A DNA stretch of 64,000 bases from a virus. Shown one piece after another: positions 2,640 through 34,232 of the stretch. Position 1 is the first letter of the stretch, and each line of letters opens with the position of its first letter. Where the stretch lies: positions 1 through 64,000 of the IMG/VR virus record IMGVR_UViG_3300030430_004105; one strand, given 5' to 3'. Position numbers and translations under genes: made by a program. The notes under the pieces were generated by a model. That model was not told the origin of the DNA. It ran no database searches and saw nothing but the letters and a program-made list of their open reading frames with translations.

Positions 2640-3194
2640 TTAATCCTCGTTTTTTGCTGTATAATTTGAAGGCTTCTTAGCCTGTTCTGCGCCTTGCGAA
2701 AGGAAATCCTTGATCGCTTTATCAAGTCTATCTTCTTCGCTTGGTAACCCAACATGCTCAGCATCAACCCCACCTAACTCAAATTTTTGTTGAGCAATAA
2801 TTGACACCCTTTGTCTTGAGATATATTGCATGTTGATCTCGATTTCTGAAGGTTTGTTAAGGCTAAGAGATCCTTCACCTCCAACCTTTTTATATTCTTT
2901 CTTAAGAAACTTCACAATATCTGCAATGCATTGTTCAATATCAGAAGTCAACTGTGGCTTGTGTGAGTCTTTTGCTGTGCATTCTGTATGGTAAGATAAC
3001 ATGACAGTGTTGCCCATAACTCTGATATTGAAACCGTCGATTACACGGGAATCCTTAATAGAACACCCTTTTTCTCTTTTTAGTCCGATTTCTTTTGCAA
3101 GATCCTCGCCTGTAAATCTTTCATCATGTGCTCCATCATAAGCATTTGCTGCTGCTTGTTGTAGCGCTGTTACGATTTGTAATGTTGTAGCCAT
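2640..3194 (-). CDS. Hypothetical protein
   Basis: Likely start MATTLQ at 3194 (SD GAGG), directly after the stop of the upstream gene. Confidence 0.65.
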   Translation of the reverse strand: MATTLQIVTALQQAAANAYDGAHDERFTGEDLAKEIGLKREKGCSIKDSRVIDGFNIRVMGNTVMLSYHTECTAKDSHKPQLTSDIEQCIADIVKFLKKEYKKVGGEGSLSLNKPSEIEINMQYISRQRVSIIAQQKFELGGVDAEHVGLPSEEDRLDKAIKDFLSQGAEQAKKPSNYTAKNED

Positions 3195-3195
3195 T

Positions 3196-3585
3196 TTATT
3201 GTTCCTCTTGATTTGGGCGCCACCCTGTTTGCCACCTTTCTTCTCTTCCATCGACATATTGAATGAAGCAATTCTGACAGCATTCATATTTGTGCATATA
3301 GAAATCATCACCTTTGTCAAAAGAGTAAGTTGAACATACAGGGCAGGTTCTTTTACTATCAGTATTAAGTAGTCTTTTTGGCATTAAAAAACCATCTGTT
3401 TCTACTAAATCATTATCTTCATGATATTTAGAAACTTTTGATTCAAATTTTTTCGTTGTTTCTAGATATTCTTTTTCTTTATCGTCATCCCATCCAGCAT
3501 TAGGGTTTTGTACTGTTTCTTTGCCATACTTCTTCCCTATTGCCTTTTCAAATGCTGCTATCTTGTTAAGATCATTAATCTTCAC
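3196..3585 (-). CDS. Hypothetical zinc-finger protein
   Basis: CPVC...CCQNC; GTG start overlaps upstream stop. Confidence 0.65.
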   Translation of the reverse strand: MKINDLNKIAAFEKAIGKKYGKETVQNPNAGWDDDKEKEYLETTKKFESKVSKYHEDNDLVETDGFLMPKRLLNTDSKRTCPVCSTYSFDKGDDFYMHKYECCQNCFIQYVDGREERWQTGWRPNQEEQ

Positions 3586-18716: not shown

Positions 18717-21700
18717 CTAATATCTGCCATCGATGCCATCGCCTCTGTTGATTCCAGATCCACCAAGTGGATTTGATCCATCGCCTTCACGCTCTACTCT
18801 CCTTCTAGTAGTTTCAGACACTACTAAAGGTTTATTTTCGGCATCTCCACCTTTGGGCGTTCCTCCGCCCCCAGAATCAGTATCGTCAGATGGAAGATAT
18901 TCAAGTATTTTGTTATCAGCATCTATAACCACTTCTGCCTTGTATTCAGGTAAAGAAACAGATGTTGAATCTTCGGATCTTCCACCCACTACTGCTGTGT
19001 TGACACCTACTGTACCAATGTTTTCAGTTGTTATTATCCCTAAATCATAGCCGATAGAGTTGTCTGCATTAGAAGTATCTTTCTCTTCTGCTAGCATGGT
19101 GATATCAACAGAAACTTTGACGTTCTCAACCATAGAAAAGAAGTCATACGGCCAGTTGTATCCTAATTTCATGCTTGATGTTGTATCATCTGAGTTTTGT
19201 TGAGCAAAGCCAAATCTTCCATCTGCTAGATCAGATTCCATTTTCTCGTCATAATTTCTAGCGCCTTTCTGCTTGACTTTGAATATCATCCACTTGACGT
19301 CTTTAAGAGATTCAATTCCGTCTCCGTTTTCATCAAACAGCCCGCCAAGAAGTTCATCAACATTGACATCGTGAGAGATGGTTTCTTGTTTGAATTCAAC
19401 CTTCTTTAGGCTTTCCGTTCTTACGCCCTGCCAGATGCCGTTGAGATCTTCTCTATCTAGGCTCTTTTCAAATTCAAAGATATACATCGGCAAAGGTTCA
19501 ATGTCATTCTCAATGAAATCTAAGTGAGGAGGTAAGTTATATTTTTGCATTTTGTCAATTTGATCCTTGACAGATTGCCCAATTGAACTTTCGAATCCTG
19601 TGCGACTGGCTGGAGTTCTTGCAAGTCTATCTTTGGATACCAGATTATTCTGGAATAGATACTTATCTACTTCGAACTTATCTAGAGTCAAAAATTGTCT
19701 TTCGTTGTCTTCGATTGCAATGTAAGGAATTGCAATAACCGCTTCACGTATTATTTTAGTCTGAGCGGTGACACCCATTTTGACTTTCTCTTGACTAAAC
19801 CCTACCAAATCTGCTAAAGATTTAGTTGAGATTGTAGATCCTTCACTGTGCATAAATTTACCCCATCTAACAGTAGATGCGTTTCTAGCAAAGTTCTTGT
19901 CGTTTTGAGGAGCCATTTGAACTTTATTTTCAAAAGCCAAGCCTGTTCCGCCACCAGCGTTGTATCTTATGCTACCCCTGATAAATGTCGGCTCTGGATA
20001 ATCATACGATGAGGTGGTAGCAGCGGATGGACTTGAGGCAACTGCTGGATTATCTGGTATAAGTTTAAATCTCCTAGTGACTGATCTGCTTTTGAGTCCC
20101 TTAAATTTCTTATTATTTTTCTTCTTTTTTCCTTTTAAGCCAAAGAAATCTCTTCTTTCTTTATCGGACATATCAATTTTGGCAAAAGACTTGATACTTG
20201 GGTTCAGTTCTACCAATTTATCTTCTAACTCTACAGGTACAATCTGTTTTTTGCCGTCAACATCTACGCAAGATATATCTGCTCTATCTGACAAATCTGC
20301 AGACTGATCTGTGTACTTCACTCCAATTGAGAATTCTTTCAAGAAATCTTCGAATAATCCTCTGGAGAAACTACCATAATCAAAACTTAAACTAGCATAA
20401 TCTTTCGCTTCAATCAAAATAGGAGTATATGTGCCTGCCCTGTCATAATTGTAATATGCAGTTGCCCAGTTGCCTTGATAAGATCCACTTGATTTTTGAG
20501 GGTAGGATGCCGATGATGCTGTAGTGTTAATAAACACAGTGTACAAACCACCGGTGAAGGCAGAGTTAGTAGTCAACATGGTTTTATCAGAAGATTGAAT
20601 AATCGTAAACAGCCCACTTGAACTTTGTGCATTCTGGATTGATCCATATACTGCTGTCAATTCTGCAGAATTTAATTCAGCATCTATAATAATCCCATCA
20701 TCTTTGTTTATCAACTGTATAGAACTACCTAGAACAGACAGATCTTCTTTGCCAACCAACTTTCTTCTTATTTCTTGCTTCTTAAAATATGGAAGGATTG
20801 TCTTGCCCGGATTCTTGTTGTAACCCAAGTTAAGCCCTGCACCATCACAATCGTTGATATCTGGCTTGACTACAGTGTATTTTGGATTTGCAATTGTCAG
20901 TTCTGTTCCTAAAATAGTGTAGTCATCTGGAACATCCATCATTTGCATGAAAATACCTCTTTCGTCAGATTCAGGGAATTCACCATACTGGTGCCACATT
21001 CCGATAGGATTCAGGATACCGCTTAGTTCATGAACTGCAGACAAAGAAGAGTGTGCTGCACTCAAAACATCAGGCTCGCTTCTGGTGCCACTCAGGCTCA
21101 TGCTTGCTGTGTGGATGTCAGAAGTGGAAACTTCGCTTTCAAAAGCAGCGTTGTGTGGACGATTCAAGTATTTAGAGAAGTCAAGTATCGGAGTCTCAAA
21201 CTTGGATTCGATTACCCAAGCCTTTCCAGCGTTTTGCTGATTAGTGTCAATTTCAGATATAACTCCTTGACTGCTGTACTTAGCAGGATATACACTGACT
21301 TGCTTGAACAGGTTGAAAGAAGCGTCAATTTGCATTGCATTTTCATTGATGGCGAATCCTTGCGGCCCGAACGTCCCTCTGTCTCCATAAGATCCTGATT
21401 CATGGTTTAACTCATATCTCAAGAAATCCACAGTAGTTTTTTCAAGTATCTCAGAAAGCGTGTGCTTGCCTGCTCTTTCCGGCGTAAATGTGTAGATAGC
21501 CCAAGCCTCTCCATCATAGTACGGAGGCGTAAATGGAGCATTGTAGCCGTTTGTAGAGTCATACATCATATATGTTGTATTGTTATGCTTGCCAGTCAAA
21601 GGTGTGATGTCATCCGTGTCCAAACCTTTAAATTCAACAGCGACACCACCAGCACAAGGAGGGCCGAAAGCATTTGGCTGTGAGTACATTGTGATTGTCT

Positions 21701-24700
21701 CAACTTCTGCATAAGGATTCATTTGAGGACGTGGATAGCCAACTGATTCTAGATCGTACTCTAAGTCAGTGCCAGTCAAGTTCTCATATTCTCTCAAGAA
21801 ATAGTTTGTTCCACTCGGTGGGCGATAATAATATTTATCAACCTTGTTGCTGTCAATATACTTAGTACCCGGAACAGTACCGTCAGTCTTTACGACTTCA
21901 GTGACACCTTTGAACTCAACCCAAGGATGTTGCTTCTTGGACTTATATACTTTGAATATCGAACGATAAACTGGAAGTATTCCTGCATGATTGGCGATAA
22001 CAACACCAAAATCAGGATGATTGTCGGGCTTAGAAATGATTCTAGACGTCTTGCCATCTTCTAAGAAAAATCCAATTGCTTCTGCAAAGAAGTTATTAGA
22101 CATTAGTTTGTAATTTTTATCTCCAATACCATTCCACTCGGTTCTCAAGTTGACTGAGGAACTAATATGCGGATTAGCATCTACAATTCTCTTTGAAGCC
22201 AAGTATGCCTCTGGGTTGATAAGAGTTTCGAAAGGCAATCTGTCATCAAAGTATTCATTGTTGATCATATAGTTTTTACCACCATAGGGATCCGAGAGAG
22301 ACGCTGTGGCAAGTTTTGATGTGATGATAGGGTAATCTACTGCCATACCAGACTTAATGGTGTTATACAGCAATCCCGGCGACATAATGGCATCAAAAAT
22401 TGGACGTGACTGTGCAAATGTATTGTTGTCAGGAAATAGCAAATTGGTGTTGCTCTCGTCTGCTTCTTCAGCCAAGAAGTTTCTTCCATAAGAATCGGCG
22501 AACGCTTCACACATTTGAACAGTTCTAGACTGAGGATAGAATCCATCATAAGGTAAGAAACTCATAATCGCATCACATGTCAAAGTCAGTTTAGCGACAC
22601 TAGCATCTCCTCTGTTTTCTTCAATAAAGTTTTCCATATTTTTTATATCTGAAGATATGGAGTATTCTTTTAGAAATTCATTTCCAGATATGTTTATCGT
22701 ATTGCGATTAACTGTTACGCCGTTATCTGCACTGGTACCAGTTATCTCAAGCCAATAATTCTTCTTGAAATATTCAACCTCAGAAGACTCACCAGCGACT
22801 ATATCCTTTACGTGAGAACTAATTCTGAACTCAGGCACCAAAGAGAAGTGCTTATTGTGTCCTCTGATATTCTCGTACCAAGTATTATAATCATCATCCA
22901 TAGGAGTCAGCCCAGACAAGTCTGGAGTTGTCCATCTAGAAGTATTATCATATAGTCCATCTGTGGCATATCCCAAAGAACGTGTTAGGTTGAAATGGTT
23001 TGATCTTAACTTGTATTCTGCGCTAATTAGCCCAAGACTTGACTTGGCAGTCGGAGATCTCAAAGATCCCGGCGAGGTTAGTACGTGAGGATAGTTGTAC
23101 CTAGGTTGTGGTATTATTTCTCCAAACCTTAACAAAACTGGATCGTATCCTCCGCTCATGCCGGTGGCTGCAAAAGTATTTCCTGTTTCTGTTATTGGAA
23201 TATTTCCTGCAGTTCCCAGCAAAGATGAAGTCATATGTAATCTAGCAGCGTCGCCAACAGGTTCAATAGTCACTGAGGCGATAGAAGCAGACGCTTTGAT
23301 TGATGCTGAGAGATTGTTGAAATAATCGGCGTTCGATATGGTATTCAGATTGTTCACATTTGTTCCACAAAGAACCTGCCCTGCTCCTGCAGATGATCCA
23401 GTTACAAGAGTGAGAGTCACGCCATTAATCGTAATCGTGTCGCCTGCTTTTGCACCAGATTCATCTGATCCACCATCTGTGTTGGCAGCGATCGTGAACC
23501 CAACGCCGTCGGCGCCATTATATACAGATGTTATATCACTGTTAAACAATGCACCAGTTGCAGAAGATGTAATACTAAATGTTGCGATATTATTTGAAGG
23601 CGAAATTGATATTGTGTCAAATACGGTATTATCTTTGATCGACTGCGATAAGTCATTCCAAAACAAAGTGCTTTTTTCTTCGTCAGTTCCAGAGTAGCCA
23701 GAGGCATCAATGAATTTGTCCACTACGGTTGAGGACTCATCTCCATTCAGATCTACTTTAAAAATCAAATTTGTCTCAGTGCCGTCTCCATCTGTGTCAG
23801 TAAAAAATCTGATAAAATCCAAATCTCCAATACCAATTGGTGTAGTTCCGCCTGCAGCACCTTCCAAATTAAAGAAAGTTCTATTATTGGAGGATCTAAC
23901 AAATGCAACGTTTTGAGCGGTACCTGTCACAGATGAGGTTAATTTCATGAATCTTCTGCCAGTAGGCATACCAGAGGTAGAGGAACCGCCTGATCCAAAC
24001 GAAGATGAATTTAATATTTTAAAAGTTAATTCATTTGAAAATGCATTGGCTGATACTCCGGGACTGGCGTTGATCTCATGAACACCGGGTGAAGAATCGT
24101 GAACAATTGTGAAAGTTGTTCCACCAATCGTTATTGTGTCTCCTGCCTTGGCACCAGATTCGTCAGTTCCCCCAGATCCAGCGTCTATAATGTTGTATGA
24201 AAGCCCAGAATTTGCCCCATCTTCTGTAACGTTCGGATTGGAGTTAGTTGTACCAGTAACAGAACTTGTAATAGAAAACAACATCATTCCACCCACAACA
24301 GAACCGGTATTCGCTGTGTGTGTTGTATTACTATTTATTTTAGATCTTAAATTTTCCCAAACAGCAGAACTGGAGTTAACAGAAGAAGATAAAACGTTAA
24401 ATTTGACGCCCGAGTTGTCGCTTGTTGTTGGAGTGAAAGTTTTCGTACCGCCTGTTCCGGGATTAAATATAATAATATCATCACCCGGACGAATACCAGA
24501 TTCATCTGTTCCGTTTGAAAAGTTTGTTCCTGCTGTAAAAGTTGGAGACGAATAAGCAGCGCCGGTTCGATTACCAGTGGCACCAGATTCTGATGAGGTT
24601 ACTGTAAAGGTTGCAGTTCCGTTGAGATTATCAACATATGAGGCAGCGTAGTACCAAGGCGCACTTTCTAGTTGCGCTTTTAAAGCATTCCAAAAATTAG

Positions 24701-27700
24701 TATGAGTGGTGCCGTAAACAGTTGAGTCAAGATATTTACGAGTAGTAGTGTTCTCACTAGTTCGATCACTATAAGCAATGTATAAATATCGAAACTGGCT
24801 GCCAGCGATAGGGAATTTGATACGATCATTCTCTTGTGCACCAACATCATCTTGCCCATTTGAGCCAGAATTTGTCACATTAAATGAAGAGTGTGAAGAT
24901 GTCACCACACCATTGTCAGCCTCTCCTCTGTTCTTGGAAACAATATTGAATGTTGCCTTATTGCCCACAGAAGATCTATTTAAAACTTCCCATCCCGGAA
25001 CAAATCCAGAATTTATCACTGTTTCCATTCTGCTCCAAACATCACTATCAGCGACGCCTACGACATTTACACTAGTGTTTGCAGAGTTGTTGCTTGCCAA
25101 ATTGACAGTTGTTCCATCAATATCTATGGAGTGTCCGGTAGTAGAGCCAGATGGAGCACCTCCTCCAGTTGCTGTATTGATAGTAACTTGAGTTGAGGCT
25201 TCATACAAAAAGTATGCGTTGCCTCCACCAGCGTTGACGGAATCAACACGTATTTCATTTGTGTTTTGCAAAGTAGCAACAACATTGACAAGACTGGAAT
25301 TGTTGATTGCGGAAACTATTTTGTTGTACAGATTGGCTGTGTTTGTGTAGTCTGTTATTTCAATATTCACTGGGTTCAAGGTATGTCCTGCACCTGCAGT
25401 GTCCGTACCATTACCAAAATCATTAATATTAATATAAAGATAATTACCATCATTAATGACGGCTCCAGTTGTATAATCATTACCTTTTCTTATTTGTATA
25501 GATGCAGCATATGGAGCAACTCCAAGCCCAGAAGCCGCATTTCCACCAGTAAAGTTTGCACTAGTGCCAAAATCGTTAAATGTATTGGCAAACATCGATC
25601 CTGTATCAAGTGTTACAGCATCATTATCCGTCTCCTGAACGTTTCTTGTGACAACATAAGTCGCTTGATTACTAAGAGTGGTATAATTGGCGCTGGCAAT
25701 TTCTGAGTCTGATTCGAGAGAGTATTCAAGGTGATTGAAGTAATGTTCAGTGCTTGCAGTGTAGTGAACTAGCGAACTTAAACCAGTTGTATAAGGAACT
25801 GGCCTACCTTCGTGAACAACCCCAAATGTCAAGTTAACATTACTATTGTGACTAGGAGTAACAAAAGTCAAGTTTTCATCTTTTATAGTATATGCCTGTG
25901 AATCTACGCCAGTTACAGGCGTAGTAATACCTGATAAAGTTTTTTCTGCTCCAAGCACTGTTGAAGGTGTGGCATTAAAATTTGGCATGTCGCCAGTGGA
26001 TGGATTATCTTGTCCTCCAGAAAATACCCACCAAGACAAACAATTTGAAAAATATTTAGGATGTGTTTGGAGATTTCTTGCATAACCCTTATTGTATATT
26101 TCTTCGATGTCTGTAAAGCCCAAAAGTGTGTCCCAAATCGATAAATGCGCTAAGCAGCCTTGTAGTTCAAAATTTGAACTATTAACAAATGGACTATCAG
26201 CGACAAAAATAGAGTTCACCTCTCTCAAGGCTCCAGTATTAGATTTCGATGTAGTGTCGTAACTTTGAAGAGCACTGTTAATTCTCAATTCTGGATCATT
26301 TTGTATACTATCGACATCAAAAGTAATTGAAAAGAACTGAAATCTAGTTGTTTTCATTATACCTTCTTTCTTCCATTCATTATAGTAGCCACTAGAATTG
26401 TACATGCGAATGTACAAATCATCATATTGATAGTATACCACTATTGTTTGATCTGAAGGGGTAGTATCTTTGCTGTCCTCAGCAAAACTAAGAATATATT
26501 GATTTGTGCTACTAGCGATATTGTCAGACTTTAACCAAAAGCAAACTGTGAAATCTCCGGAGATAGTATATGAATCATTGTGGACATCCATTCTTTGAGC
26601 CAAACCGGTGGATGTCCATCGCCATGATCTAGATCTTTGCTGAGCAATCAAAAAATCTCGTGGCGTGTAAACGTTCGCAGTACCATCACCAGCGAAAGTA
26701 TATACATTACCTTCATCTAGAGGGCTTGAGTGCTTTATCTTGTGAGTTCCTCCTTTAATATTTACATTAGAGTTGGAAACGATTTCGCCGCTTATTGTGT
26801 TATGCTGAGCGCCGAAGTATGTGGTTGAACTAAATGGCTCATAAGTAGTTGTAGTTTCACCGACAGTTACGTCTTTAGTGATGTCATATGCTGTTGGCAA
26901 ATCATAGCCTACATCGTCTGCTAGAATCCTAACTGTACTGGAATTTCCGAAAACTTCTGCTGTATATGGCTGTGAATTTGCGGTAAAACTAGCGTTTAAT
27001 TTTTCTACCCATGCTAGCCCGAACTCTTGATCCGATTTTAAATTTTTGTTTGAGTATGACGCTTCAGATCTTAACAACTCTACGGCGGTGGCGGTGGACG
27101 GAGTAATTGACAAGTGATTTGTTCCGCCTCCGATATCTGTGATGTCTCCAGATGATATATCGTCAGAAACATAATTTCCCGGACTCCAATAAGTAACTAA
27201 GTTTGTACTAGGAGCCAAGTCATTTAAACTTGTCCATTCTCCACTATTATAATAGTCTGTTTCACTTGGGGCACTGGTGCTATCATATATGCCTATTTCT
27301 CCGATTGATAGATCAAAATTTGTGCTGTTGTCTCCGACGAAATAATTTCCAGCAGGAGCACTTGGCGCATACGTGTTGATAACAACGCCGTTATAGGTTG
27401 TTGTCTTGGTGGTGTATTCTGTGCCATCACTGTATGCACTCCATTCTTCAGTAGCAGGATTTGTATCAGAAATTGATAACTTAATGGCATGCCAAGCGTT
27501 GTTTCCGTTCGTACTGAATGCGAAAAAATTGGTAAACCGTGTCTCAATGTAATTACTATTAGAGTTTTGATAGTATCGTCTGCATATTAAGTGATTATTG
27601 GCGCCAGACTTTTGGTAAAGTATTTCAATCGCATGAGTACCTGAACCAGTGCGATAAATCTTTAAAATATTATATGTACCGTCAGCAGATGGGTTGATTC

Positions 27701-30700
27701 CAGTTTTATTCTTCATCGTAAACAAAATGGTAGTACCCTGATCGTTTGTGAATCCGCTAAAACCGCCTCCAGAAAGCATTGAGTTTGATGTAATCTTTAT
27801 AAAACTAACTGGATTATACACTGGGATATGAATATTACTAGCGTAGTTGTCTGTATGATCATTATTATCAGTTACAATGTGATATGTTTGTGTCTTGAAA
27901 GTTAATCCGGTTTCATGATAGTTAGAAGGAGTTGAAGTAATAGTTGAGATACTTTTCGGAGAAAATATGAATGCAAATCTATCTCCATATCTTGGTATAG
28001 CCAATACTTTTAAATTTGCAGTAGCGGCAGAACCTGCCGTGTATCCGCCACCAGAAAAAGTGAAAATTTGCTGTGTTGTAGAGCCAGCGAAACTTGCCCC
28101 ACTCATCTCAAAAGAAGCGGTAGAAAATTGTCCAACAGTTGTCGCTCCTGTGACATTAAATTGAAGGGACGCACTAGCAGCAGGGACATGCGCTCCAGAG
28201 ACATAGAATTTTGAAATATGACGTGTTCCCAGAACAGTTGCAGAAGAAGTGAACTCAAATGATCCAGTTGCTTTAACGCCCGTAGGAGTCATGCCGTGGA
28301 CTGTGAAAGAGCCAGAAGAATGCTTTCCAAAAACTGTTGCTTTTGTGGTTATAATAGATCCAGTTGCTGTAGATCCAGTAACTAATACTGTCTGTAATCC
28401 GTTATGAAAATGATGATCTTGATTCTGCAGAACACCGGGTGCTCCGGCAGAGTTTGATGCAGCCACTTTAGGACTAGAACTGGTAAAGTTAATTCTAGAA
28501 TCCATGTTCCATATTGACTGCGAAGGGATGATGTTTGTCAATTGCCCTGAATCAATGAAGGTTTTTGTTTGGCTGTTTATCGCTTCTTTTGAGAATAATG
28601 ATGCAGTAACGTTTTGTTGCCTTCTTCCTACTTCGTCCAGCCCTAGATAAGAGTTTTCTCCAGTGTCTGTGTTGTAAAGAACGTTCTCGCCATCTGTCCA
28701 AAACTTAGATACAAAGTAGTGTCTATGTCTTACATTATATTTTGTGTGCTTCAAGAAATCAGGGAATAGATTTTGTCTAACTCTAATTGCTTTCAGCGAG
28801 AATGCCTCATGATCTTCATTCTTGTAGTATCCCAGAACGTTATCATAGATCGTCTCATTGACACTTGGATTAACTCCTTCTTCGTCAAACTTGGTGTTAT
28901 CAAAATGATACTTCATGTTCACGTAAGGATGCACAAAGCGAAAGATCTCGTCTTTGAATTTCATAGTTGTGTATATGGGAATGTTTTCTGTGATTCTAGA
29001 TTCTTCAATTGTTTCCGCAGTACCGTCTGTCTCTAGGCTATATCCATAAGATTTTTTGTTGACTACGTTCTTGTTTGTGTCGTTGTTTCTGACTTGTTCC
29101 CAAGAAGGGTAGCCATATACAGTGGTACCTGTCATTCTTTGGTTAGTGACACTTTGGCTCACCACAGCATAGTTGATGTTTTCGTGTGGATATATAGAAG
29201 ATGTCCCACTTGGCTCTGAGAAATCTGATAAGATGTGCCCAGCAAGTGAAGATGTAGCCAATGAAGCAGTGTGTGATGCTTTAACCCACTTGTATTGGAA
29301 GTCAGACTGTGGAATCTGATGCTGTATCCAGTAGTTGTCAAAGTCTTTCTCGCCTTCTGAAGCGTCCCATTTTGGGTTTCTATTGACTTTATGATATGCA
29401 GGATTGGTACCGCCCAATACAGAATCAATTCCAAACTGTGCTGCATGACGTGTCAAGTGCACAACAAGTCCAAAGCGATTACCGTGAATATCTACGAGCC
29501 TAATCGTGCCAGATTCTCCAGAGCCTGAGCCTCTAACTTGCAAGTTCCGGAAAGGGAGAGAGTTGTATGCAGACTTTTCTTTGCCGAACATGTCTAAGAA
29601 TACTTCTGACATTGTTTCGAAACCTCCGGGAGCAGAGAAGCGATTTACTATAACAGATTTTCCTGTACCAGCAACTGAATTCTCTGTTGTAGTTTTGACA
29701 CCGCCCAGATACAAACTCGAAGTGTTGAAGTTAGATGCTAAATTACCGTTCCCACCTACACCCCTAGAGATCAAACTTGCTTCTAAGTTAGTCTCTGGTA
29801 AGGCTGAATTGATGGGATTGTGCAAATTACTGTCACCTATGTCTCTAAATCTTGTTTTGTTTACAGATCTCCCGAACGTATGAACAAACTGATATGTCTT
29901 CTGGTAGTTACCAACTGCTCTTTCAGATGTTTTGATGTTCTTGATATTAACAGGGCGTTTTGCTCTTTCGTCTCGATAGTATCTAGCCTTTGCTTGATTA
30001 ACATAAAAGTGAGGCGGTGTAGAGAAACTAGAATTAGGAACAGGATAATCTGCCCCAACAATACCAATAGAACCAGATTCGTTAAGGATATTGTTGATCA
30101 ATATTTTATAACCTTCGGCACGGTTTGTGGGCGAGTCAGATCCTCTGTTTATGTTACTGTGTCTAGATTGATGTCCTCCAACCCATCTCTCTGTAAATGG
30201 AGACTGCATTGGAATTTCGTTCGTGTTATCCGTTGTATCGGAATGAACATTAACAATGTCAATATTTTGATTACCTCCGGGGATTCCGTTAACTTCTGCT
30301 GAGTATCCAGTGGTGACAGACGAAGACATGATGTTGAATGGCATAACCATGCCACCCTTGAAAAGCCCGTCATGTCCACCAGACATGGCGTGATGAAACG
30401 CTGTGAAACCATCAATGGCACTGAATGCTCTCTTGATCTTCTCTGTTACTGGACGTTCATCTGTGCAATCTTTCAAAGACTGGAACATGTCGCTGTTCGC
30501 AACAACGTATCTCAAAGGGAAAGCACCAAATTGTCCATATAGTAGTGGATACTCAGCGGCTTCTTTTGTGGCACTCCAGATGTAATCTCTTTTCTTGTTA
30601 TCTTCGTAGTTAATTCCGCCATGTATGACTCTATCTCTTTTCACTGCAAAGTGTTGCGGTGTTGTAAAAGAACGATTCAAGACTGAATTTCTGGCTTGAA

Positions 30701-33700
30701 ATACTTTAACACGAGTATTGTTAGAGCCAGATGCCGATCCAGATAAAGGAGGACGATCTCTCTCTGCTCTCTCAAGCCACCAAAAACAGTTTTTGTTCTC
30801 AGGAGTTCCGCCAACTGGAGCATGTCCTTGCTTCCATGGATATAGGTGACGGTTAATCGTGTTCATGCCACCTTCTGGTGTTGGAGCCTTGAATTCAATC
30901 GTGGGGAACTTATTGGTGTATTTGTCTCTAGAGAAGACGTAGTTCTCGATAACATTATTAACACCATCAGAATGGGCTAAGGATGCAGGTACAAGCGCTA
31001 CTAGCATCTCGCCTAGTGCATCATCCAACCATTTGTAGTAATCGATGTATTTGTCCAAATCGGGCTCGTTAGACACCCTTTCGAAGAAGAGTTGACGCAA
31101 CTTGGACAGAGCCTTATACTCCATTCTGTATTTGTCAACAGGGCGTCCAATAAGATTATTGAAGTCTGTCACTGATGACATAAAGTTTATCATCTCTTGT
31201 GACACTGTTTGCGCCATGGACTTCTCAAAAGCGATGTAATATTCTTGTGGAAGTGTCTCTTTTGTGAAGACGATATCATCTTGAGTTCTGATCTCGATCA
31301 TGTCATCGCCTTGGAGGATCTCAGGATAAGTTGATCTTGCCGCTGTGATGTAATCTACATCTATAGCCTTCTCGTCACTGACAGGCATGAAATCTAACTT
31401 ACCAAAATAAAATTTGTTCTTTACTGCTTCAAAGTTGGCGTTGTATTTGACTGGTGCCGAGCCACTTGAAGCGTCTAGCACTATCGCCTGTCCGCTTGAA
31501 TCTGTCTTCGAGAGAGTTGAAAAATTCCAGTTAAGCACCAAAGTATCGATTTCTGGTACTTTTGGAGAGTTTGCATCAGTCTGTGCCAGATATGCTGATC
31601 TAAATGGAGAGTTGGCGCCATAATTTCTGCTATCGGAACTGTGTCTTTTGAGAGTTTCGTTCGATAACTCACTGTACCATAACCTAGTGAAACCTAATTT
31701 GATATCACTTCTGTCTACCAGAGATCCAGTGAAGTTTGTTCTTTTCGCTCCAGCGTAGATTCTTTTTGAATTTACTAGGAATGAGTGAGCACTGGCAGAT
31801 GCCACAGAAGAAGTAAGCACAAACGAGTTCAACTCAGAACTATCAACTGTGTTATATCCTATGAAGTGCAATTTATAATTACCATCATCTGAGGACGATA
31901 CTAAATTTGCAGTAGGGTGTTTGTCGTTTACTATCTTGAAAGCGAGAAGCCATTCGTTATTGTCATACATCCCATCATATAGAGAAGAAGAAAGGTGAAC
32001 ACCCAGTGCAGATGAACTCAAGTGAAATTTAACTCTTTTTGATTCAGTCTCATCTCTCTCCACGTACATTTGCATGTCGCACTTATCAGGATTTGCTATG
32101 GCATAATTTGTATTTGATGTAGCCTGATGCATACCAGCAATCACAGACTTTGTAAAAGGGGTGGCGAATCCAAACGGTTCATCAAAAGGCAACTTATTAG
32201 GCAATATTATCTGTGTTTCGAAAGTCAAAGGTATGAACTTTTCAAAATTAGACGTAGAGCCGGTTATGAAACTAATGTTAGATCCAGAAGGTATCTGGTA
32301 TATAGAGGCATTAAATCGATCTGGGTTGTTGAAATCAATAAACTTCTCTTTAACAGATCTAATAGAGTACCTGTCTTTTAATTCAAATTCTACATTGTTG
32401 CCGTAAAAATTAATCTTAACAACTTCTTCGTCAATACCAAATGCATGCAGTATGTTACGGAAACCTTTGTTAGTTCCCTTTTCTTTATATGTGTTTATTA
32501 GTCCAGAATACACATTTTGGTAAATCTGGTTCTTCACGTCGTGAAGTTTCATCTCGTAATTTTCATCTTCGCTTCTTTTGGCAAGTTTTTCTAGCACGGT
32601 AGCATCAGAAAACAATTCAGGGGCAACAAAACTAGCATTTGTTAAAAGCCTGTCAGCGAATGGAAGAGGCTTGACTGATCCAGAAGTGCTAGTATTTCCA
32701 TACTCATCGCCTGTTTTTGTTTGAAAATGTGCGTATATATCTTTCAGGCGATTAACTTCTCTTATATGCAGGTGCATATTGTCAAAATAAGATGCAATAA
32801 TTTGCGTTAGGTTCCTAAGATTTCCTTCTTTGACATCATCGTCTTCTAGAATCCATTGTGGCATTGTGTGAAAAATCGATGAGTTGTTGTACATATCGTA
32901 GTGTGATCCAGACGCCTCTAGTTCGGATAGAGTAGAAATGTAATCTGGATGGTTAGAACGGATGGTTGGATCTTTAAATTCTTTATCTATGACTTTTGCC
33001 AATACCATGGCAGAATCAGTGCTTCTCGCACCAGACACATAACCCGTCCAAGCGCCATTTGAAACTCTACCAGAATAGTCTAGAACATTTGAGTCGAAAC
33101 TAGCAGTCTGAGTGATTCCTTCATTGAATTTGTAATATACGCCAAGTTTAGTATTAGCCTCATCAGTGTTTGTTCCACCACCGATTGTATTCCAATAATA
33201 TCTACCAATTTGTTTTGCAGTTCTCTCGGTTTTCCAATATCTGAACTCGTCTAGCGAGCCTGAGAACTTACCTGCACCTGTCTGAATGGTAGGAGATCCA
33301 GAAGGAGCGGTTTGTAGCGCCCCAATAAATGAAATTATCGATCCTGTTATATTATTAAGAGCGGCAGATGAAATTGTCTGTTGATGGTTTAGTGCTCCGT
33401 TAATATACAGATTGGTTGACAGGTTAGAGCCTGTATTCTTCAAAGACAAGGCAATGTGAGTCCAATCTGTAATTGATGATGTTGTAACATTTTGCCCACA
33501 AGACTGATTCTGTATGCCGTTTGTTCCGCTCAAAGCAGTAAATAAGAACGGAGAACCGGCAGCAGCACCAGTAAGTTCTAATCGAAACCTACCATACTGT
33601 GCTGAACTGGACGGCTGTCCGTTCCACAAGTCAAATAAAACCTCTTTTTCTGTTTTTGATGTGTCAAAAGCAGGCTTTTTTACCCACATTTCAACCGTAA

Positions 33701-34232
33701 CACCCTCGTTTAAATTAAATTTGAGGTTTGATTCTCTTGATTTTACTGTGTCAAGTTTGTTGGCGTCACCAAATTGATTCTCAAGCCCTGATAAATCAGA
33801 TTTGTTAGGGCCGCCAAATGTCTTAATAAAAGTATTTGTTGTTGATTTCCCATATCCATCGATTATTCCACCACTAAGAGAACCCCATGTAGGATACCCT
33901 AAGTTGATGTGTCCGTTAAATCTAGGATATTTGTGATCGAATATGTATTTGTCAATGAATGTAGATTCATTTAGCCACTGTGCTTTTTCTGCCTCTGAGC
34001 CGTCATACGGGTACAGAGTCCTAATTCTGGCAAAAGCATCAGTATAGTATTTTTCTGCCGAGCCGTATATCGCAAACTGGCTTGGATCGCTAAAATCTAC
34101 GTTTGGATAAAACCTTTCTTCATCTATACTAGTTTGTTCGATAAAACTTTCAGACTCAACGTCTGCTGCCATATCTTCTAGACTTGATGATTTTATCACT
34201 TTTGTTGAATTATATAAATCTTTTAATTTCAT
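18717..34232 (-). CDS. Giant (5171 aa) baseplate/tail-fibre protein with LamG/ConA-like domains and internal repeats
   Basis: LamG motifs TVEMWVK..WTHIA..LYING..GSLDEFRYW and FTVCFWLK..GCLAHLSIWD; YKEKGT tail-associated motif; GTDESGAKAGDTITI repeats; downstream of gp6. Confidence 0.78.
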   Translation of the reverse strand: MKLKDLYNSTKVIKSSSLEDMAADVESESFIEQTSIDEERFYPNVDFSDPSQFAIYGSAEKYYTDAFARIRTLYPYDGSEAEKAQWLNESTFIDKYIFDHKYPRFNGHINLGYPTWGSLSGGIIDGYGKSTTNTFIKTFGGPNKSDLSGLENQFGDANKLDTVKSRESNLKFNLNEGVTVEMWVKKPAFDTSKTEKEVLFDLWNGQPSSSAQYGRFRLELTGAAAGSPFLFTALSGTNGIQNQSCGQNVTTSSITDWTHIALSLKNTGSNLSTNLYINGALNHQQTISSAALNNITGSIISFIGALQTAPSGSPTIQTGAGKFSGSLDEFRYWKTERTAKQIGRYYWNTIGGGTNTDEANTKLGVYYKFNEGITQTASFDSNVLDYSGRVSNGAWTGYVSGARSTDSAMVLAKVIDKEFKDPTIRSNHPDYISTLSELEASGSHYDMYNNSSIFHTMPQWILEDDDVKEGNLRNLTQIIASYFDNMHLHIREVNRLKDIYAHFQTKTGDEYGNTSTSGSVKPLPFADRLLTNASFVAPELFSDATVLEKLAKRSEDENYEMKLHDVKNQIYQNVYSGLINTYKEKGTNKGFRNILHAFGIDEEVVKINFYGNNVEFELKDRYSIRSVKEKFIDFNNPDRFNASIYQIPSGSNISFITGSTSNFEKFIPLTFETQIILPNKLPFDEPFGFATPFTKSVIAGMHQATSNTNYAIANPDKCDMQMYVERDETESKRVKFHLSSSALGVHLSSSLYDGMYDNNEWLLAFKIVNDKHPTANLVSSSDDGNYKLHFIGYNTVDSSELNSFVLTSSVASASAHSFLVNSKRIYAGAKRTNFTGSLVDRSDIKLGFTRLWYSELSNETLKRHSSDSRNYGANSPFRSAYLAQTDANSPKVPEIDTLVLNWNFSTLSKTDSSGQAIVLDASSGSAPVKYNANFEAVKNKFYFGKLDFMPVSDEKAIDVDYITAARSTYPEILQGDDMIEIRTQDDIVFTKETLPQEYYIAFEKSMAQTVSQEMINFMSSVTDFNNLIGRPVDKYRMEYKALSKLRQLFFERVSNEPDLDKYIDYYKWLDDALGEMLVALVPASLAHSDGVNNVIENYVFSRDKYTNKFPTIEFKAPTPEGGMNTINRHLYPWKQGHAPVGGTPENKNCFWWLERAERDRPPLSGSASGSNNTRVKVFQARNSVLNRSFTTPQHFAVKRDRVIHGGINYEDNKKRDYIWSATKEAAEYPLLYGQFGAFPLRYVVANSDMFQSLKDCTDERPVTEKIKRAFSAIDGFTAFHHAMSGGHDGLFKGGMVMPFNIMSSSVTTGYSAEVNGIPGGNQNIDIVNVHSDTTDNTNEIPMQSPFTERWVGGHQSRHSNINRGSDSPTNRAEGYKILINNILNESGSIGIVGADYPVPNSSFSTPPHFYVNQAKARYYRDERAKRPVNIKNIKTSERAVGNYQKTYQFVHTFGRSVNKTRFRDIGDSNLHNPINSALPETNLEASLISRGVGGNGNLASNFNTSSLYLGGVKTTTENSVAGTGKSVIVNRFSAPGGFETMSEVFLDMFGKEKSAYNSLPFRNLQVRGSGSGESGTIRLVDIHGNRFGLVVHLTRHAAQFGIDSVLGGTNPAYHKVNRNPKWDASEGEKDFDNYWIQHQIPQSDFQYKWVKASHTASLATSSLAGHILSDFSEPSGTSSIYPHENINYAVVSQSVTNQRMTGTTVYGYPSWEQVRNNDTNKNVVNKKSYGYSLETDGTAETIEESRITENIPIYTTMKFKDEIFRFVHPYVNMKYHFDNTKFDEEGVNPSVNETIYDNVLGYYKNEDHEAFSLKAIRVRQNLFPDFLKHTKYNVRHRHYFVSKFWTDGENVLYNTDTGENSYLGLDEVGRRQQNVTASLFSKEAINSQTKTFIDSGQLTNIIPSQSIWNMDSRINFTSSSPKVAASNSAGAPGVLQNQDHHFHNGLQTVLVTGSTATGSIITTKATVFGKHSSGSFTVHGMTPTGVKATGSFEFTSSATVLGTRHISKFYVSGAHVPAASASLQFNVTGATTVGQFSTASFEMSGASFAGSTTQQIFTFSGGGYTAGSAATANLKVLAIPRYGDRFAFIFSPKSISTITSTPSNYHETGLTFKTQTYHIVTDNNDHTDNYASNIHIPVYNPVSFIKITSNSMLSGGGFSGFTNDQGTTILFTMKNKTGINPSADGTYNILKIYRTGSGTHAIEILYQKSGANNHLICRRYYQNSNSNYIETRFTNFFAFSTNGNNAWHAIKLSISDTNPATEEWSAYSDGTEYTTKTTTYNGVVINTYAPSAPAGNYFVGDNSTNFDLSIGEIGIYDSTSAPSETDYYNSGEWTSLNDLAPSTNLVTYWSPGNYVSDDISSGDITDIGGGTNHLSITPSTATAVELLRSEASYSNKNLKSDQEFGLAWVEKLNASFTANSQPYTAEVFGNSSTVRILADDVGYDLPTAYDITKDVTVGETTTTYEPFSSTTYFGAQHNTISGEIVSNSNVNIKGGTHKIKHSSPLDEGNVYTFAGDGTANVYTPRDFLIAQQRSRSWRWTSTGLAQRMDVHNDSYTISGDFTVCFWLKSDNIASSTNQYILSFAEDSKDTTPSDQTIVVYYQYDDLYIRMYNSSGYYNEWKKEGIMKTTRFQFFSITFDVDSIQNDPELRINSALQSYDTTSKSNTGALREVNSIFVADSPFVNSSNFELQGCLAHLSIWDTLLGFTDIEEIYNKGYARNLQTHPKYFSNCLSWWVFSGGQDNPSTGDMPNFNATPSTVLGAEKTLSGITTPVTGVDSQAYTIKDENLTFVTPSHNSNVNLTFGVVHEGRPVPYTTGLSSLVHYTASTEHYFNHLEYSLESDSEIASANYTTLSNQATYVVTRNVQETDNDAVTLDTGSMFANTFNDFGTSANFTGGNAASGLGVAPYAASIQIRKGNDYTTGAVINDGNYLYININDFGNGTDTAGAGHTLNPVNIEITDYTNTANLYNKIVSAINNSSLVNVVATLQNTNEIRVDSVNAGGGNAYFLYEASTQVTINTATGGGAPSGSTTGHSIDIDGTTVNLASNNSANTSVNVVGVADSDVWSRMETVINSGFVPGWEVLNRSSVGNKATFNIVSKNRGEADNGVVTSSHSSFNVTNSGSNGQDDVGAQENDRIKFPIAGSQFRYLYIAYSDRTSENTTTRKYLDSTVYGTTHTNFWNALKAQLESAPWYYAASYVDNLNGTATFTVTSSESGATGNRTGAAYSSPTFTAGTNFSNGTDESGIRPGDDIIIFNPGTGGTKTFTPTTSDNSGVKFNVLSSSVNSSSAVWENLRSKINSNTTHTANTGSVVGGMMLFSITSSVTGTTNSNPNVTEDGANSGLSYNIIDAGSGGTDESGAKAGDTITIGGTTFTIVHDSSPGVHEINASPGVSANAFSNELTFKILNSSSFGSGGSSTSGMPTGRRFMKLTSSVTGTAQNVAFVRSSNNRTFFNLEGAAGGTTPIGIGDLDFIRFFTDTDGDGTETNLIFKVDLNGDESSTVVDKFIDASGYSGTDEEKSTLFWNDLSQSIKDNTVFDTISISPSNNIATFSITSSATGALFNSDITSVYNGADGVGFTIAANTDGGSDESGAKAGDTITINGVTLTLVTGSSAGAGQVLCGTNVNNLNTISNADYFNNLSASIKASASIASVTIEPVGDAARLHMTSSLLGTAGNIPITETGNTFAATGMSGGYDPVLLRFGEIIPQPRYNYPHVLTSPGSLRSPTAKSSLGLISAEYKLRSNHFNLTRSLGYATDGLYDNTSRWTTPDLSGLTPMDDDYNTWYENIRGHNKHFSLVPEFRISSHVKDIVAGESSEVEYFKKNYWLEITGTSADNGVTVNRNTINISGNEFLKEYSISSDIKNMENFIEENRGDASVAKLTLTCDAIMSFLPYDGFYPQSRTVQMCEAFADSYGRNFLAEEADESNTNLLFPDNNTFAQSRPIFDAIMSPGLLYNTIKSGMAVDYPIITSKLATASLSDPYGGKNYMINNEYFDDRLPFETLINPEAYLASKRIVDANPHISSSVNLRTEWNGIGDKNYKLMSNNFFAEAIGFFLEDGKTSRIISKPDNHPDFGVVIANHAGILPVYRSIFKVYKSKKQHPWVEFKGVTEVVKTDGTVPGTKYIDSNKVDKYYYRPPSGTNYFLREYENLTGTDLEYDLESVGYPRPQMNPYAEVETITMYSQPNAFGPPCAGGVAVEFKGLDTDDITPLTGKHNNTTYMMYDSTNGYNAPFTPPYYDGEAWAIYTFTPERAGKHTLSEILEKTTVDFLRYELNHESGSYGDRGTFGPQGFAINENAMQIDASFNLFKQVSVYPAKYSSQGVISEIDTNQQNAGKAWVIESKFETPILDFSKYLNRPHNAAFESEVSTSDIHTASMSLSGTRSEPDVLSAAHSSLSAVHELSGILNPIGMWHQYGEFPESDERGIFMQMMDVPDDYTILGTELTIANPKYTVVKPDINDCDGAGLNLGYNKNPGKTILPYFKKQEIRRKLVGKEDLSVLGSSIQLINKDDGIIIDAELNSAELTAVYGSIQNAQSSSGLFTIIQSSDKTMLTTNSAFTGGLYTVFINTTASSASYPQKSSGSYQGNWATAYYNYDRAGTYTPILIEAKDYASLSFDYGSFSRGLFEDFLKEFSIGVKYTDQSADLSDRADISCVDVDGKKQIVPVELEDKLVELNPSIKSFAKIDMSDKERRDFFGLKGKKKKNNKKFKGLKSRSVTRRFKLIPDNPAVASSPSAATTSSYDYPEPTFIRGSIRYNAGGGTGLAFENKVQMAPQNDKNFARNASTVRWGKFMHSEGSTISTKSLADLVGFSQEKVKMGVTAQTKIIREAVIAIPYIAIEDNERQFLTLDKFEVDKYLFQNNLVSKDRLARTPASRTGFESSIGQSVKDQIDKMQKYNLPPHLDFIENDIEPLPMYIFEFEKSLDREDLNGIWQGVRTESLKKVEFKQETISHDVNVDELLGGLFDENGDGIESLKDVKWMIFKVKQKGARNYDEKMESDLADGRFGFAQQNSDDTTSSMKLGYNWPYDFFSMVENVKVSVDITMLAEEKDTSNADNSIGYDLGIITTENIGTVGVNTAVVGGRSEDSTSVSLPEYKAEVVIDADNKILEYLPSDDTDSGGGGTPKGGDAENKPLVVSETTRRRVEREGDGSNPLGGSGINRGDGIDGRY

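What the first reader, a model, noticed from the sequence alone, without database searches (positions are those of the whole stretch)
23139..28385. Nested (Russian-doll) split-domain stalk in the 5171-aa fibre
Seen: eight tandem ~16-aa strand-like units (TATGSII, HSSGSFTV, KATGSFEF, RHISKFYV, SASLQFNV, FSTASFEM, TTQQIFTF, AATANLKV; ~28385-28000) are followed by eight longer units of pattern GD.I.I...(F/W)N.L...I...F.ITSS..G..N...GG that lack such a first strand. Two of these carry an inserted LamG-like domain (~27800-27150 and ~26580-26020); six are plain (starting SGSTTG, VGAQEN, SGIRPG, SGAKAG, IGIGDL, SGAKAG). One extra self-contained copy (YAASIQI...DGNYLYI) shows the intact unit. Inference: order A1..A8 then B8..B1 means each domain is inserted in a loop of the previous one, forming an out-and-back monomeric rod that presents lectin domains at its tip. 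Length would be tuned by paired gain or loss at two distant sites.
Basis: partly seen in the sequence, partly recalled or inferred. Interest (0 to 1): 0.8.

Follow-up and report, generated by a model that had tools for sequence, protein, structure and literature searches.

The report
Nested-domain hairpin stalk in phage protein
A giant tail-associated protein of an uncultured marine phage seems to build a rod from nine copies of one small domain, each inserted inside the previous one like Russian dolls, which would be deeper nesting than any I found described and an unusual way to make a virus fibre.

Summary
ORF 18717-34232(-) encodes 5171 aa. Residues 1951-2080 are eight ~16-aa strand units (A). 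Residues 2081-3698 hold nine, not eight, helix-containing units (B), two with LamG-type inserts.

The nested reading is supported by four lines of evidence:
- ESMFold2 docks the A run onto the last seven B units in reverse order. ipSAE is 0.68 and the best of 3 controls 0.00. That mark was reached by 58 of 80 solved and 2 of 110 mismatched pairs (rough, own alignment). Runs agree in >=94% of contacts and partner pLDDT is >=79.
- In 21 of 21 relatives counted, A strands track B units across depths 1, 2, 3, 6, 8, 9 and 12. Depth-1 relatives show the unsplit domain.
- Relatives lacking the 'self-contained' unit lack exactly the penultimate A.
- The module sits at three different sites of the host protein.

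Two corrections. The 'self-contained' copy takes A7, and the LamG1 unit is the contiguous tip.

Weak points: AlphaFold2 failed on the tip, and all evidence is computational. The fold has no significant PDB match and only a weak FliD/flagellin likeness.

Known kin in principle are flagellin/FliD and cyanobacterial RNA polymerase Si3 (six levels). This scan noted the same stretch before on this genome only.

The parts
18717..34232 (-). Host gene: 5171-aa structural protein that carries the stalk as an internal insertion
   Evidence: Single ORF. It lies two genes downstream (one gene between) of a baseplate wedge (T4 gp6-like) gene at 35668-37479 (phrog_219, E 2.2e-24). Pfam Laminin_G_3 at aa 170-342. 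No PHROG hit.
27993..28382 (-). Ascending limb: eight ~16-aa strand units A1-A8 (aa 1951-2080), one strand per level
   Evidence: aa 1950-2060 (A1-A7) are in the modelled interface with the B units. The limb scores pLDDT 26 when the B chain is replaced.
26790..27992 (-). Level 9, innermost (tip) unit, contiguous (aa 2081-2481), with the LamG1 insert
   Evidence: Position follows from the non-crossing rule plus B = A+1 in all 11 of 11 two-LamG relatives. Not modelled: AlphaFold2 failed.
27174..27749 (-). LamG1 insert core (aa ~2162-2353)
   Evidence: hhalign to the LamG2 profile: 97.5%, E 5.7e-12. No Pfam hit alone. Moderately confident beta-sandwich strands in the otherwise failed model.
25512..26789 (-). 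Level 8 return part (aa 2482-2907) with the LamG2 insert; inferred partner of A8
   Evidence: C-half HMM hit at aa 2829-2900. The pairing with A8 is inferred, not modelled.
26115..26594 (-). LamG2 insert core (aa 2547-2706)
   Evidence: Pfam Laminin_G_3, E 6.2e-7, 30.1 bits, above the 27.6 cut-off.
25152..25511 (-).
   Evidence: Residues 2989-3027 lie in the interface with chain 1, whose interface runs to aa 2060. The unit is absent, together with the penultimate A, in depth-8 relatives.
24846..25151 (-). Level 6 return part (aa 3028-3129); partner of A6
   Evidence: Contact 3095-2041, expected error 0.9 A.
24501..24845 (-). Level 5 return part (aa 3130-3244); partner of A5
   Evidence: Contacts 3207-3211 with 2023-2027, errors 0.6-0.9 A.
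24159..24500 (-). Level 4 return part (aa 3245-3358); partner of A4
   Evidence: Contacts 3317-3319 with 2008-2011, errors 0.7-0.8 A.
23838..24158 (-). Level 3 return part (aa 3359-3465); partner of A3 by continuity
   Evidence: In the interface list. The specific pairing is inferred from the order of A4-A6.
23460..23837 (-). Level 2 return part (aa 3466-3591); partner of A2 by continuity
   Evidence: In the interface list. Best conserved B unit.
23139..23459 (-). Level 1 (base) return part (aa 3592-3698); partner of A1 by continuity
   Evidence: In the interface list. AlphaFold2 model of this unit alone with 59 paralogues: pLDDT 88.7, pTM 0.79.

Best explanation
Residues 1951-3698 of the 5171-aa protein form one insertion module, a single-chain hairpin rod made of nine homologous alpha/beta domains nested inside one another.

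Each domain consists of one N-terminal strand (A) plus a ~105-125-aa remainder (B): three strands, a helix and three or four more strands. The next domain is inserted right after the A strand. The chain therefore climbs the rod with one strand per level (A1 to A8), folds the innermost domain contiguously at the far end, and comes back down completing levels 8 to 1.

The two innermost levels each carry a LamG-type (concanavalin-A-like) domain as a further insertion. These two domains sit at the distal end.

The ends of the module lie side by side at the base, so it can be plugged into a surface loop of the host protein. The host protein is encoded in the baseplate gene block.

Shown by model and comparison: the reverse-order A-B pairing, the matching counts, and the portability of the module. 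Inferred: that the rod projects from the baseplate or tail and that the LamG pair is the host-recognition part, at roughly 60% given the topology. The length, on the order of 30 nm if each level adds about 3-3.5 nm, is also inferred. In DNA the distal end is the middle of the module, flanked by the best conserved units.
For: 1. Model. ESMFold2 was given aa 1950-2080 against aa 2908-3698. ipSAE was 0.68 (runs 0.68, 0.70, 0.67) and the best of 3 controls 0.00. The mark was reached by 58 of 80 solved complexes and 2 of 110 mismatched pairs; these counts hold only roughly because my own alignment was used. Runs agree in at least 94% of contacts and partner pLDDT is at least 79. The lowest-error contacts pair A6, A5 and A4 with the units at aa 3028, 3130 and 3245. 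The A strand lies against the 'ATFxxTSS' strand. Without the B chain the A run scores pLDDT 26. Without the A run the B chain drops from 83-86 to 64-67.

2. Counts. I counted by eye on printed sequences. In 21 of 21 relatives the A strands equal the B units: 10 of 21 exactly, with the last A contiguous with the tip unit, and 11 of 21 as B = A+1, all with two-LamG tips. Depths are 1 (2 proteins), 2 (2), 3 (2), 6 (2), 8 (8), 9 (4) and 12 (1). Automated HMM counts reproduce 18 of 21 A counts. Spearman A against B is 0.91 to 0.96 by variant, n = 21, not independent.

3. Unsplit unit. P0041 and P0057 have one A strand directly followed by one B unit.

4. Mirror indel. The 4 of 4 depth-8 window-clade relatives aligned (P0008, P0010, P0014, L004) have their A-run gap at A7 of P0006/P0009. 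They also lack the unit at aa 2908-3027. Their stalks are otherwise collinear with P0009, with the LamG tips between the two gaps.

5. Three insertion sites relative to conserved host landmarks.

6. Conservation falls from base to tip on both limbs. Spearman for reverse-order pairs is 0.90; for same-order pairs it is -0.52; n = 8.
Against: No experiment exists; everything rests on models and comparison.

- AlphaFold2 on aa 2032-3129 (A6-A8, both LamG units and two B units; 5-row alignment) failed, with mean pLDDT 39.7 and pTM 0.30. The cis turn at the tip and the partner of A8 are therefore not modelled.
- The docking was done in trans. It cannot tell a cis hairpin from strand exchange between chains.
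- A B unit alone, with 59 paralogues as alignment, is modelled confidently (pLDDT 88.7).
- Counts were made by eye. The HMM missed some diverged strands: 3 of 21 A counts differ, and the two-LamG tip unit went undetected in 10 of 11 such relatives (a partial hit in P0011).
- In the window's clade the tip's own first strand does not look like an A unit, so B = A+1 needs an assumption.
- MAFFT also put a gap at A7 in P0007, which has eight A units.
- The 21 proteins are related, so the correlation p-values are not meaningful.
- The role in the virion rests on gene neighbourhood alone.
Confidence: 0.8

Rival explanations
1. Beads on a string. The B units are ordinary tandem domains that fold alone. 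The A run is a separate element, such as a small beta-solenoid, a linker or an assembly motif, and the equal counts are a by-product of shared ancestry.
For: A single B unit is modelled with high confidence without any A strand (pLDDT 88.7). The tip could not be modelled.
Against: Counts match over seven different depths from 1 to 12. The indel is mirrored. The A run scores pLDDT 26 on its own. The B chain gains about 19 pLDDT points with it. ipSAE is 0.68 against 0.00 in the best of 3 controls; 58 of 80 solved and 2 of 110 mismatched pairs reached the mark (rough, own alignment); runs agree in >=94% of contacts; partner pLDDT >=79.
Confidence: 0.06
2. Strand exchange between chains. The same A-B complementation happens, but between two or more copies of the protein (a domain-swapped bundle), not within one chain.
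For: The only successful model was made with two separate chains. Many phage fibres are oligomers (general knowledge).
Against: In depth-1 relatives, and in the tip unit of 10 of 21 relatives, the strand is contiguous with its domain. The reverse order is what a cis hairpin requires. The module sits in three different loops of the host protein, which fits adjacent ends in one chain.
Confidence: 0.08
3. The topology is right, but the module is not a host-recognition fibre. It could be a strut, spacer or decoration of the baseplate or tail, with LamG domains binding other virion parts or serving as general adhesion modules.
For: No receptor-binding family was detected. The host protein matches no PHROG. 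A third LamG domain sits at the N-terminus, away from the stalk. The weak fold matches are to decoration-like insertion domains of sheath and nozzle proteins.
Against: The tip is the most variable part (identity 0.19, against 0.44-0.56 for the three basal B units). Tip types differ between relatives. This is the usual signature of host-range determinants (general knowledge). Depth varies from 1 to 12 among relatives.
Confidence: 0.25

Closest known systems
Flagellin (FliC) and the filament cap FliD: hairpin chains with nested domains D0-D3
   Same: The chain goes out and back. The outer domains have N- and C-terminal parts and only the innermost is continuous (review PMC8306008, passages read). 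The B-unit model gives its most recurrent, though weak, matches to FliD D2-D3 and flagellin outer domains: VIA-align Z 5.7 (5fhy_B, 85 residues, 2.9 A), 5.6 (5h5w_B) and 4.8 (FliC 4nx9_A).
   Different: Flagellin has four levels of unlike domains, against nine to twelve levels of one repeated domain here. It has a helical D0/D1 base and polymerises into filaments. Foldseek found nothing significant (best E 0.87), and no flagellar Pfam family matched. Z values of 5-6 are within the range the tool calls common.
Si3 insertion of cyanobacterial RNA polymerase beta' (recursive hybrid-motif domains)
   Same: Small domains of one kind are inserted recursively into one another. A survey of 2.7 million classified domains names it as its example of complex nesting: eight domains in a six-level recursive architecture (PMC13114784, abstract and passages).
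   Different: It has another fold, another function (transcription) and six levels rather than nine here and twelve in a relative. It has no regular one-strand ascending limb. I read nothing about variation in depth from 1 to 12 among close relatives there.
Conventional phage tail fibres and receptor-binding proteins
   Same: Likely job: hold a binding domain away from the baseplate. Gene position is in the baseplate block. The distal part is variable.
   Different: As far as I recall, those are intertwined trimers whose distal tip is the C-terminus. Here one chain would make the rod, and the distal tip is the middle of the module. No PHROG tail-fibre family matched.
Insertion domains of phage sheath and T7-type nozzle proteins, and uncharacterised phage proteins in BFVD
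   Same: Best structural matches of the B unit: cyanophage P-SCSP1u tail protein 8i4m_A (Z 6.1, 80 residues, 2.8 A), A-1(L) sheath 8kee_A (Z 6.0) and T7 tail 6r21_a (Z 5.4). BFVD gave 4 hits at E <= 0.001, among them Rhodobacter phage RcTitan proteins (TM 0.55-0.65).
   Different: In those proteins the domains occur as single insertions; I did not examine whether any are nested. The Z values are middling.

Membership tests
Recursive (nested) domain-insertion architecture | Number of N-terminal pieces equals number of C-terminal pieces across relatives | tested here: met
   Met in 21 of 21 relatives, at depths 1-12. Counts were made by eye and broadly reproduced by HMM counts.
Recursive (nested) domain-insertion architecture | Pieces pair in reverse order (first with last) | tested here: met
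   ESMFold2 contacts pair A6, A5 and A4 with the units at aa 3028, 3130 and 3245. ipSAE 0.68; best of 3 controls 0.00; 58 of 80 solved and 2 of 110 mismatched pairs reached the mark (rough, own alignment); >=94% contact agreement; partner pLDDT >=79. This is a model only. The mirror indel agrees.
Recursive (nested) domain-insertion architecture | Innermost domain is contiguous | tested here: inconclusive
   Clear by sequence in 10 of 21 relatives. In the window the tip could not be modelled, and its first strand is unlike the A units.
Recursive (nested) domain-insertion architecture | An unsplit version of the domain exists | tested here: met
   P0041 and P0057 each have one A strand directly followed by one B unit.
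Laminin_G_3 / concanavalin-A-like lectin-glucanase superfamily (the two inserts) | Match to the family profile above its curated cut-off | tested here: met
   Insert 2: E 6.2e-7, 30.1 bits against a cut-off of 27.6. Insert 1: no Pfam hit, but hhalign to insert 2 gives 97.5%, E 5.7e-12.
Laminin_G_3 / concanavalin-A-like lectin-glucanase superfamily (the two inserts) | Carbohydrate or other ligand binding | not testable with these tools
   Needs binding assays.
Flagellin / FliD | Sequence match to flagellin or FliD families | tested here: not met
   No such Pfam family at E <= 0.1 on the region or at E <= 10 on single units. The PDB sequence profile search found only chance-level hits (E >= 1.2).
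Flagellin / FliD | Same fold as the D2/D3 outer domains | tested here: inconclusive
   VIA-align Z 4.6-5.7 to seven FliD entries and 4.8 to FliC. Foldseek best E 0.87.
T4-type baseplate or tail-fibre proteins | Profile match to a named structural family | tested here: not met
   No PHROG hit at E <= 0.01 for the three thirds of the protein, nor at E <= 0.1 for three shorter relatives apart from one chance-level hit (E 0.025, unknown function). Only the gene at 35668-37479 matches a baseplate wedge family.

The most novel reading that the evidence does not exclude
This is a new class of phage host-recognition fibre: a single-chain rod assembled by recursive self-insertion of one small domain. 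Its length is set by nesting depth (1 to 12 among relatives), deeper than the six-level case singled out by a recent survey of domain insertions. Its receptor-binding end is encoded in the middle of the module, so conserved basal units on both sides can serve as recombination arms for swapping tips and changing length.
Probability: 0.5. Interest if true: 0.85.

Novelty: new variant of a known kind. Interest (0 to 1): 0.8.

Why it matters
If the topology is right, it shows that recursive domain insertion can be used as a building principle for a long rod. Until now it has been known as an occasional curiosity of three to six levels.

- It offers a natural series of depths 1, 2, 3, 6, 8, 9 and 12 on which folding of deeply discontinuous domains can be studied.
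- It would add a fibre type to phage biology that does not depend on trimerisation.
- It would explain how a 15-kb gene in an uncultured group of large marine phages varies its reach and its tip.
- The module's portability (three insertion sites) and its simple rule (one strand up, the rest down) also make it a candidate scaffold for displaying binding domains at a set distance.
- For annotation, the B unit defines a rare family absent from Pfam and PHROGs: 50 hits in 1.84 billion representative proteins.

Tried and rejected
Searches and models that gave nothing:
- AlphaFold2 on aa 2032-3129 with a 5-row alignment gave no usable model (mean pLDDT 39.7). It says nothing for or against the tip.
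- Pfam and PHROGs on the region and on the host protein found nothing beyond LamG.
- A profile of the B units against PDB sequences gave only chance-level hits.
- Foldseek against PDB gave nothing at E <= 0.001.
- The protein atlas returned only unnamed viral clusters at score 0.90, a lead only.
- megablast of the region and tblastn of two conserved parts of the host protein against 50,697 phage records found no match. No cultured relative could be named.
- Direct DNA repeats in the region are short and at most 75-81% alike. There is no sign of recent duplication.

Ideas considered and dropped:
- The aa 2908-3027 copy is self-contained. Rejected.
- The A run is a solenoid of its own. It scored pLDDT 26 alone.

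Counting. The first A-unit HMM, built from the window alone, was too weak for counting. An iterated one still missed diverged strands, so I report by-eye counts beside it.

Rows left out of the count:
- Near-duplicates: P0002, P0003, P0005, L001, L002, L005, L006, L008, L009, L013, L014, L016, L017.
- Fragments without a complete stalk: L007, L010, L011, L012, L018, P0015, P0030.
- P0017 and P0058, whose architecture is unclear.
- P0049, an unrelated tandem repeat.
- Of the 50 proteins I saw 17. The other 33, all 606 aa or shorter, were not fetched.

Literature. Searches found no description of such a stalk. That covers only the held library, and supplements were not consulted. Papers read: PMC13114784 (abstract and passages) and PMC8306008 (passages). 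All others were seen as search listings only.

Full report
THE REGION. The window is part of an 83,218-base virus record estimated at 45% complete. All large ORFs lie on the minus strand. ORF 18717..34232 encodes 5171 aa. Two genes upstream (one gene between) is a baseplate wedge gene of the T4 gp6 type (35668-37479; phrog_219, E 2.2e-24). The giant protein itself matches no PHROG. In Pfam it matches only Laminin_G_3, at aa 170-342. No cultured phage in a 50,697-record collection resembles the region or two conserved parts of the protein. The finding covers aa 1950-3698.

THE OBSERVATION. The eight short units are at aa 1955, 1971, 1987, 2004, 2020, 2036, 2052 and 2069, spaced 16-17 aa apart. 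After them come nine longer units, starting at aa 2081, 2482, 2908, 3028, 3130, 3245, 3359, 3466 and 3592. Their shared pattern is a GD-x-I-x-I hairpin, an F/W-N-x-L helix, an 'F-x-L-T-S-S-x-T-G' strand and a 'G-G-T-D-E' end.

I tested for chance with HMMs trained only on a distant clade and run over the whole protein. The A model gave 3 hits, all in aa 1951-1997. The B C-half model gave 7 hits, all in aa 2832-3697. In 100 shuffles the means were 0.07 and 0.06 hits, maximum 1. In the whole record the B profile matches only inside this ORF (8 of 8 matches).

The second insert is a Laminin_G_3 domain by Pfam's own cut-off when scanned alone. The first has no Pfam hit but is homologous to the second (hhalign 97.5%, E 5.7e-12).

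DOCKING TEST. I gave ESMFold2 the A run (aa 1950-2080) and the last seven B units (aa 2908-3698) as two chains, each with an alignment of seven or eight full-length relatives. The verdict was that the model supports binding but does not show it.
- Score 0.68; best of 3 controls 0.00.
- The mark was reached by 58 of 80 solved complexes and 2 of 110 mismatched pairs. These counts hold only roughly because my own alignment was used.
- The runs agree in at least 94% of contacts, and the partner's pLDDT is at least 79.
- No like complex is solved: Foldseek found nothing at E <= 0.001. The pass is therefore unlikely to come from memory.

The lowest-error contacts are 3207-3211 with 2023-2027, 3317-3319 with 2008-2011, and 3095 with 2041. 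That places A5 on the unit at aa 3130, A4 on the unit at 3245 and A6 on the unit at 3028, which is reverse order. The interface covers aa 1950-2060 (A1-A7) and all seven B units, including aa 2989-3027 of the supposed self-contained copy. A8, whose expected partner was not in the job, is outside it. The pairings of A1-A3 and A7 follow by continuity and are not listed explicitly.

With an unrelated partner chain, the A run falls to pLDDT 26. With an unrelated short chain instead of the A run, the B chain scores 64-67 instead of 83-86.

RELATIVES. A search of 5.8 billion proteins gave nine relatives of about 3300-5600 aa. Scans of viral and metagenome contigs gave 18 loci. A B-unit profile against 1.84 billion representatives gave only 50 proteins at E <= 0.001, so the family is rare.

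On 21 non-redundant proteins with a complete stalk I counted A strands and B units by eye on the printed sequences.
- Depth 1: P0041, P0057. One strand is followed directly by one B unit. This is the intact domain.
- Depth 2: P0050, P0059.
- Depth 3: P0047, P0052.
- Depth 6: P0012, P0013.
- Depth 8: P0008, P0010, L004, P0014, P0019, P0011, L003, L015.
- Depth 9: the window, P0007, P0006, P0009.
- Depth 12: P0004.

In 10 of 21 the numbers are equal, and the last A-like strand touches the tip unit. In the other 11, all with a two-LamG tip, B = A+1. The tip unit then begins with a strand that does not look like the A units. Iterated HMMs reproduce 18 of 21 A counts. The HMM A and B counts have Spearman 0.91 to 0.96 by variant, but the 21 proteins are related, so this is descriptive only.

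MIRRORED CHANGES. In an L-INS-i alignment of A runs, the 4 depth-8 relatives of the window's clade that were aligned (P0008, P0010, P0014, L004) have their gap at A7 of the depth-9 proteins P0006 and P0009. The same four lack the unit corresponding to aa 2908-3027. That is the unit the model pairs with A7. P0009 is collinear with P0008, P0010 and P0014 over the whole stalk at 29-30% identity. The two changes therefore flank a homologous tip about 850 aa long.

One caveat: MAFFT also gapped P0007 at A7 although it has eight A units.

The depth-12 protein has three extra B units between the 2908-type unit and the 3028-type unit, and three extra A units distal to A6. The A-run alignment cannot fix their exact place.

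Conservation falls from base to tip on both limbs. Identity is 0.55-0.66 for A1-A3 and 0.44-0.56 for the last three B units, against 0.19-0.23 for A8, both LamG units and the 2908 unit. Spearman is 0.90 for reverse-order pairs and -0.52 for same-order pairs, n = 8.

PORTABILITY. I located the module relative to three conserved host landmarks: the MQ-G/S-PFT, F-S-A-P-G-G and P-R/Q-S-D/E-F-Q-Y motifs.
- In the window's clade the module lies about 300 aa after the third landmark.
- In P0019 it lies between the second and third.
- In ten other relatives it lies between the first and second.

A module that can occupy three loops of one framework should have its two ends close together, as a hairpin has.

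THE DOMAIN. AlphaFold2 on the basal B unit (aa 3592-3698) with 59 paralogous units from the window and loci gave pLDDT 88.7 and pTM 0.79. The elements are three strands, a helix, two long strands, a short helix and a strand. The last 15 residues are unstructured. In the docked model that tail and the fifth strand contact the A strand.

Fold searches:
- PDB by Foldseek: nothing significant; the best hit is FliD at E 0.87.
- VIA-align against 48,161 chains: best Z 6.1 (cyanophage P-SCSP1u tail protein), 6.0 (A-1(L) sheath), 5.7 and 5.6 (FliD D2-D3), 5.4 (T7 tail) and 4.8 (flagellin). The tool itself calls such values common.
- BFVD: four hits at E <= 0.001, all uncharacterised phage proteins, two of them from Rhodobacter phage RcTitan.

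The fold is thus best described as a phage/flagellar-type insertion domain without a confident family.

WHAT FAILED. AlphaFold2 on aa 2032-3129 with five rows gave pLDDT 39.7.

HOW IT MOST LIKELY WORKS. The chain climbs with one strand per level, folds the tip unit, and returns completing each level. The two LamG domains, themselves inserted into levels 8 and 9, end up distal.

Given the baseplate neighbourhood, the variable tip and the variable depth, the most likely role is a host-recognition fibre. I put this at about 0.6 given the topology. Because the distal end is the middle of the DNA module and the basal units on both sides are the most conserved, tips and depth could be exchanged by recombination within the basal units. 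That is inference only.

COMPARISON WITH WHAT IS KNOWN. Flagellin and FliD are hairpins in which D0-D2 have N- and C-terminal parts and D3 is continuous (PMC8306008, passages). A 2026 survey of domain insertions in 2.7 million classified domains singles out a six-level recursive architecture in cyanobacterial RNA polymerase Si3 as its complex case (PMC13114784, abstract and passages).

Three things set this stalk apart: nine levels here and twelve in a relative, all of one repeated domain; a regular 16-aa ascending limb; and a graded series of depths. Five literature searches found no description of such a stalk. I therefore class it as a new variant of a known kind. No look-alike on other DNA was on record.

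Noticed in passing
P0009 (homologue, C-terminal ~150 aa): This 5562-aa relative carries precomputed Pfam PF07591 and PF14890 hits, which I recall as Hint/intein-type. A Cys...His-Asn-like segment sits near its C-terminus. This suggests an intein or Hint module in the giant structural gene.
   Followed up: no
L003 aa ~1096-1500 versus window aa 2081-2907: The LamG insertion point differs between clades. In the window type it follows the third strand, before the helix. In the L003/L015/P0012 type it follows the strand after the helix. This points to independent acquisitions or a shifted junction.
   Followed up: partly
L003 aa ~2420-2570; also P0059, P0047, P0012, P0052: Solitary, contiguous B-like domains (own first strand, hairpin, 'A-I-N-N'-type helix) occur elsewhere in the host protein of several relatives, outside the stalk. 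The HMM hits are weak (E about 0.005).
   Followed up: partly
P0017 (1296-aa fragment): A B unit appears to be interrupted after its first hairpin by two A-like strands, a LamG-bearing tip unit and a B unit. That would be a second small hairpin inserted into a return unit, i.e. possible branching.
   Followed up: no
window 33207-33725 (aa 170-342 of the giant protein): A third LamG-type domain (Pfam Laminin_G_3, E 1.8e-12) lies at the N-terminus, far from the stalk. It is conserved in the relatives P0041 and P0052.
   Followed up: partly
window 37922-44371 (-): A second very large ORF (2149 aa) lies upstream of the baseplate wedge gene. It has no Pfam or PHROG match, and the B-unit profile does not match it.
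   Followed up: partly
window 29820-30302 (+) and 41496-42194 (+): ORFs of 160 and 232 aa lie antisense inside the two giant genes. They are most likely chance open frames.
   Followed up: no
P0049: This hit of the B profile (E 5.7e-6) is a 2229-aa chain of near-identical ~52-aa tandem repeats unrelated to the stalk. It is a false positive of the profile search.
   Followed up: no
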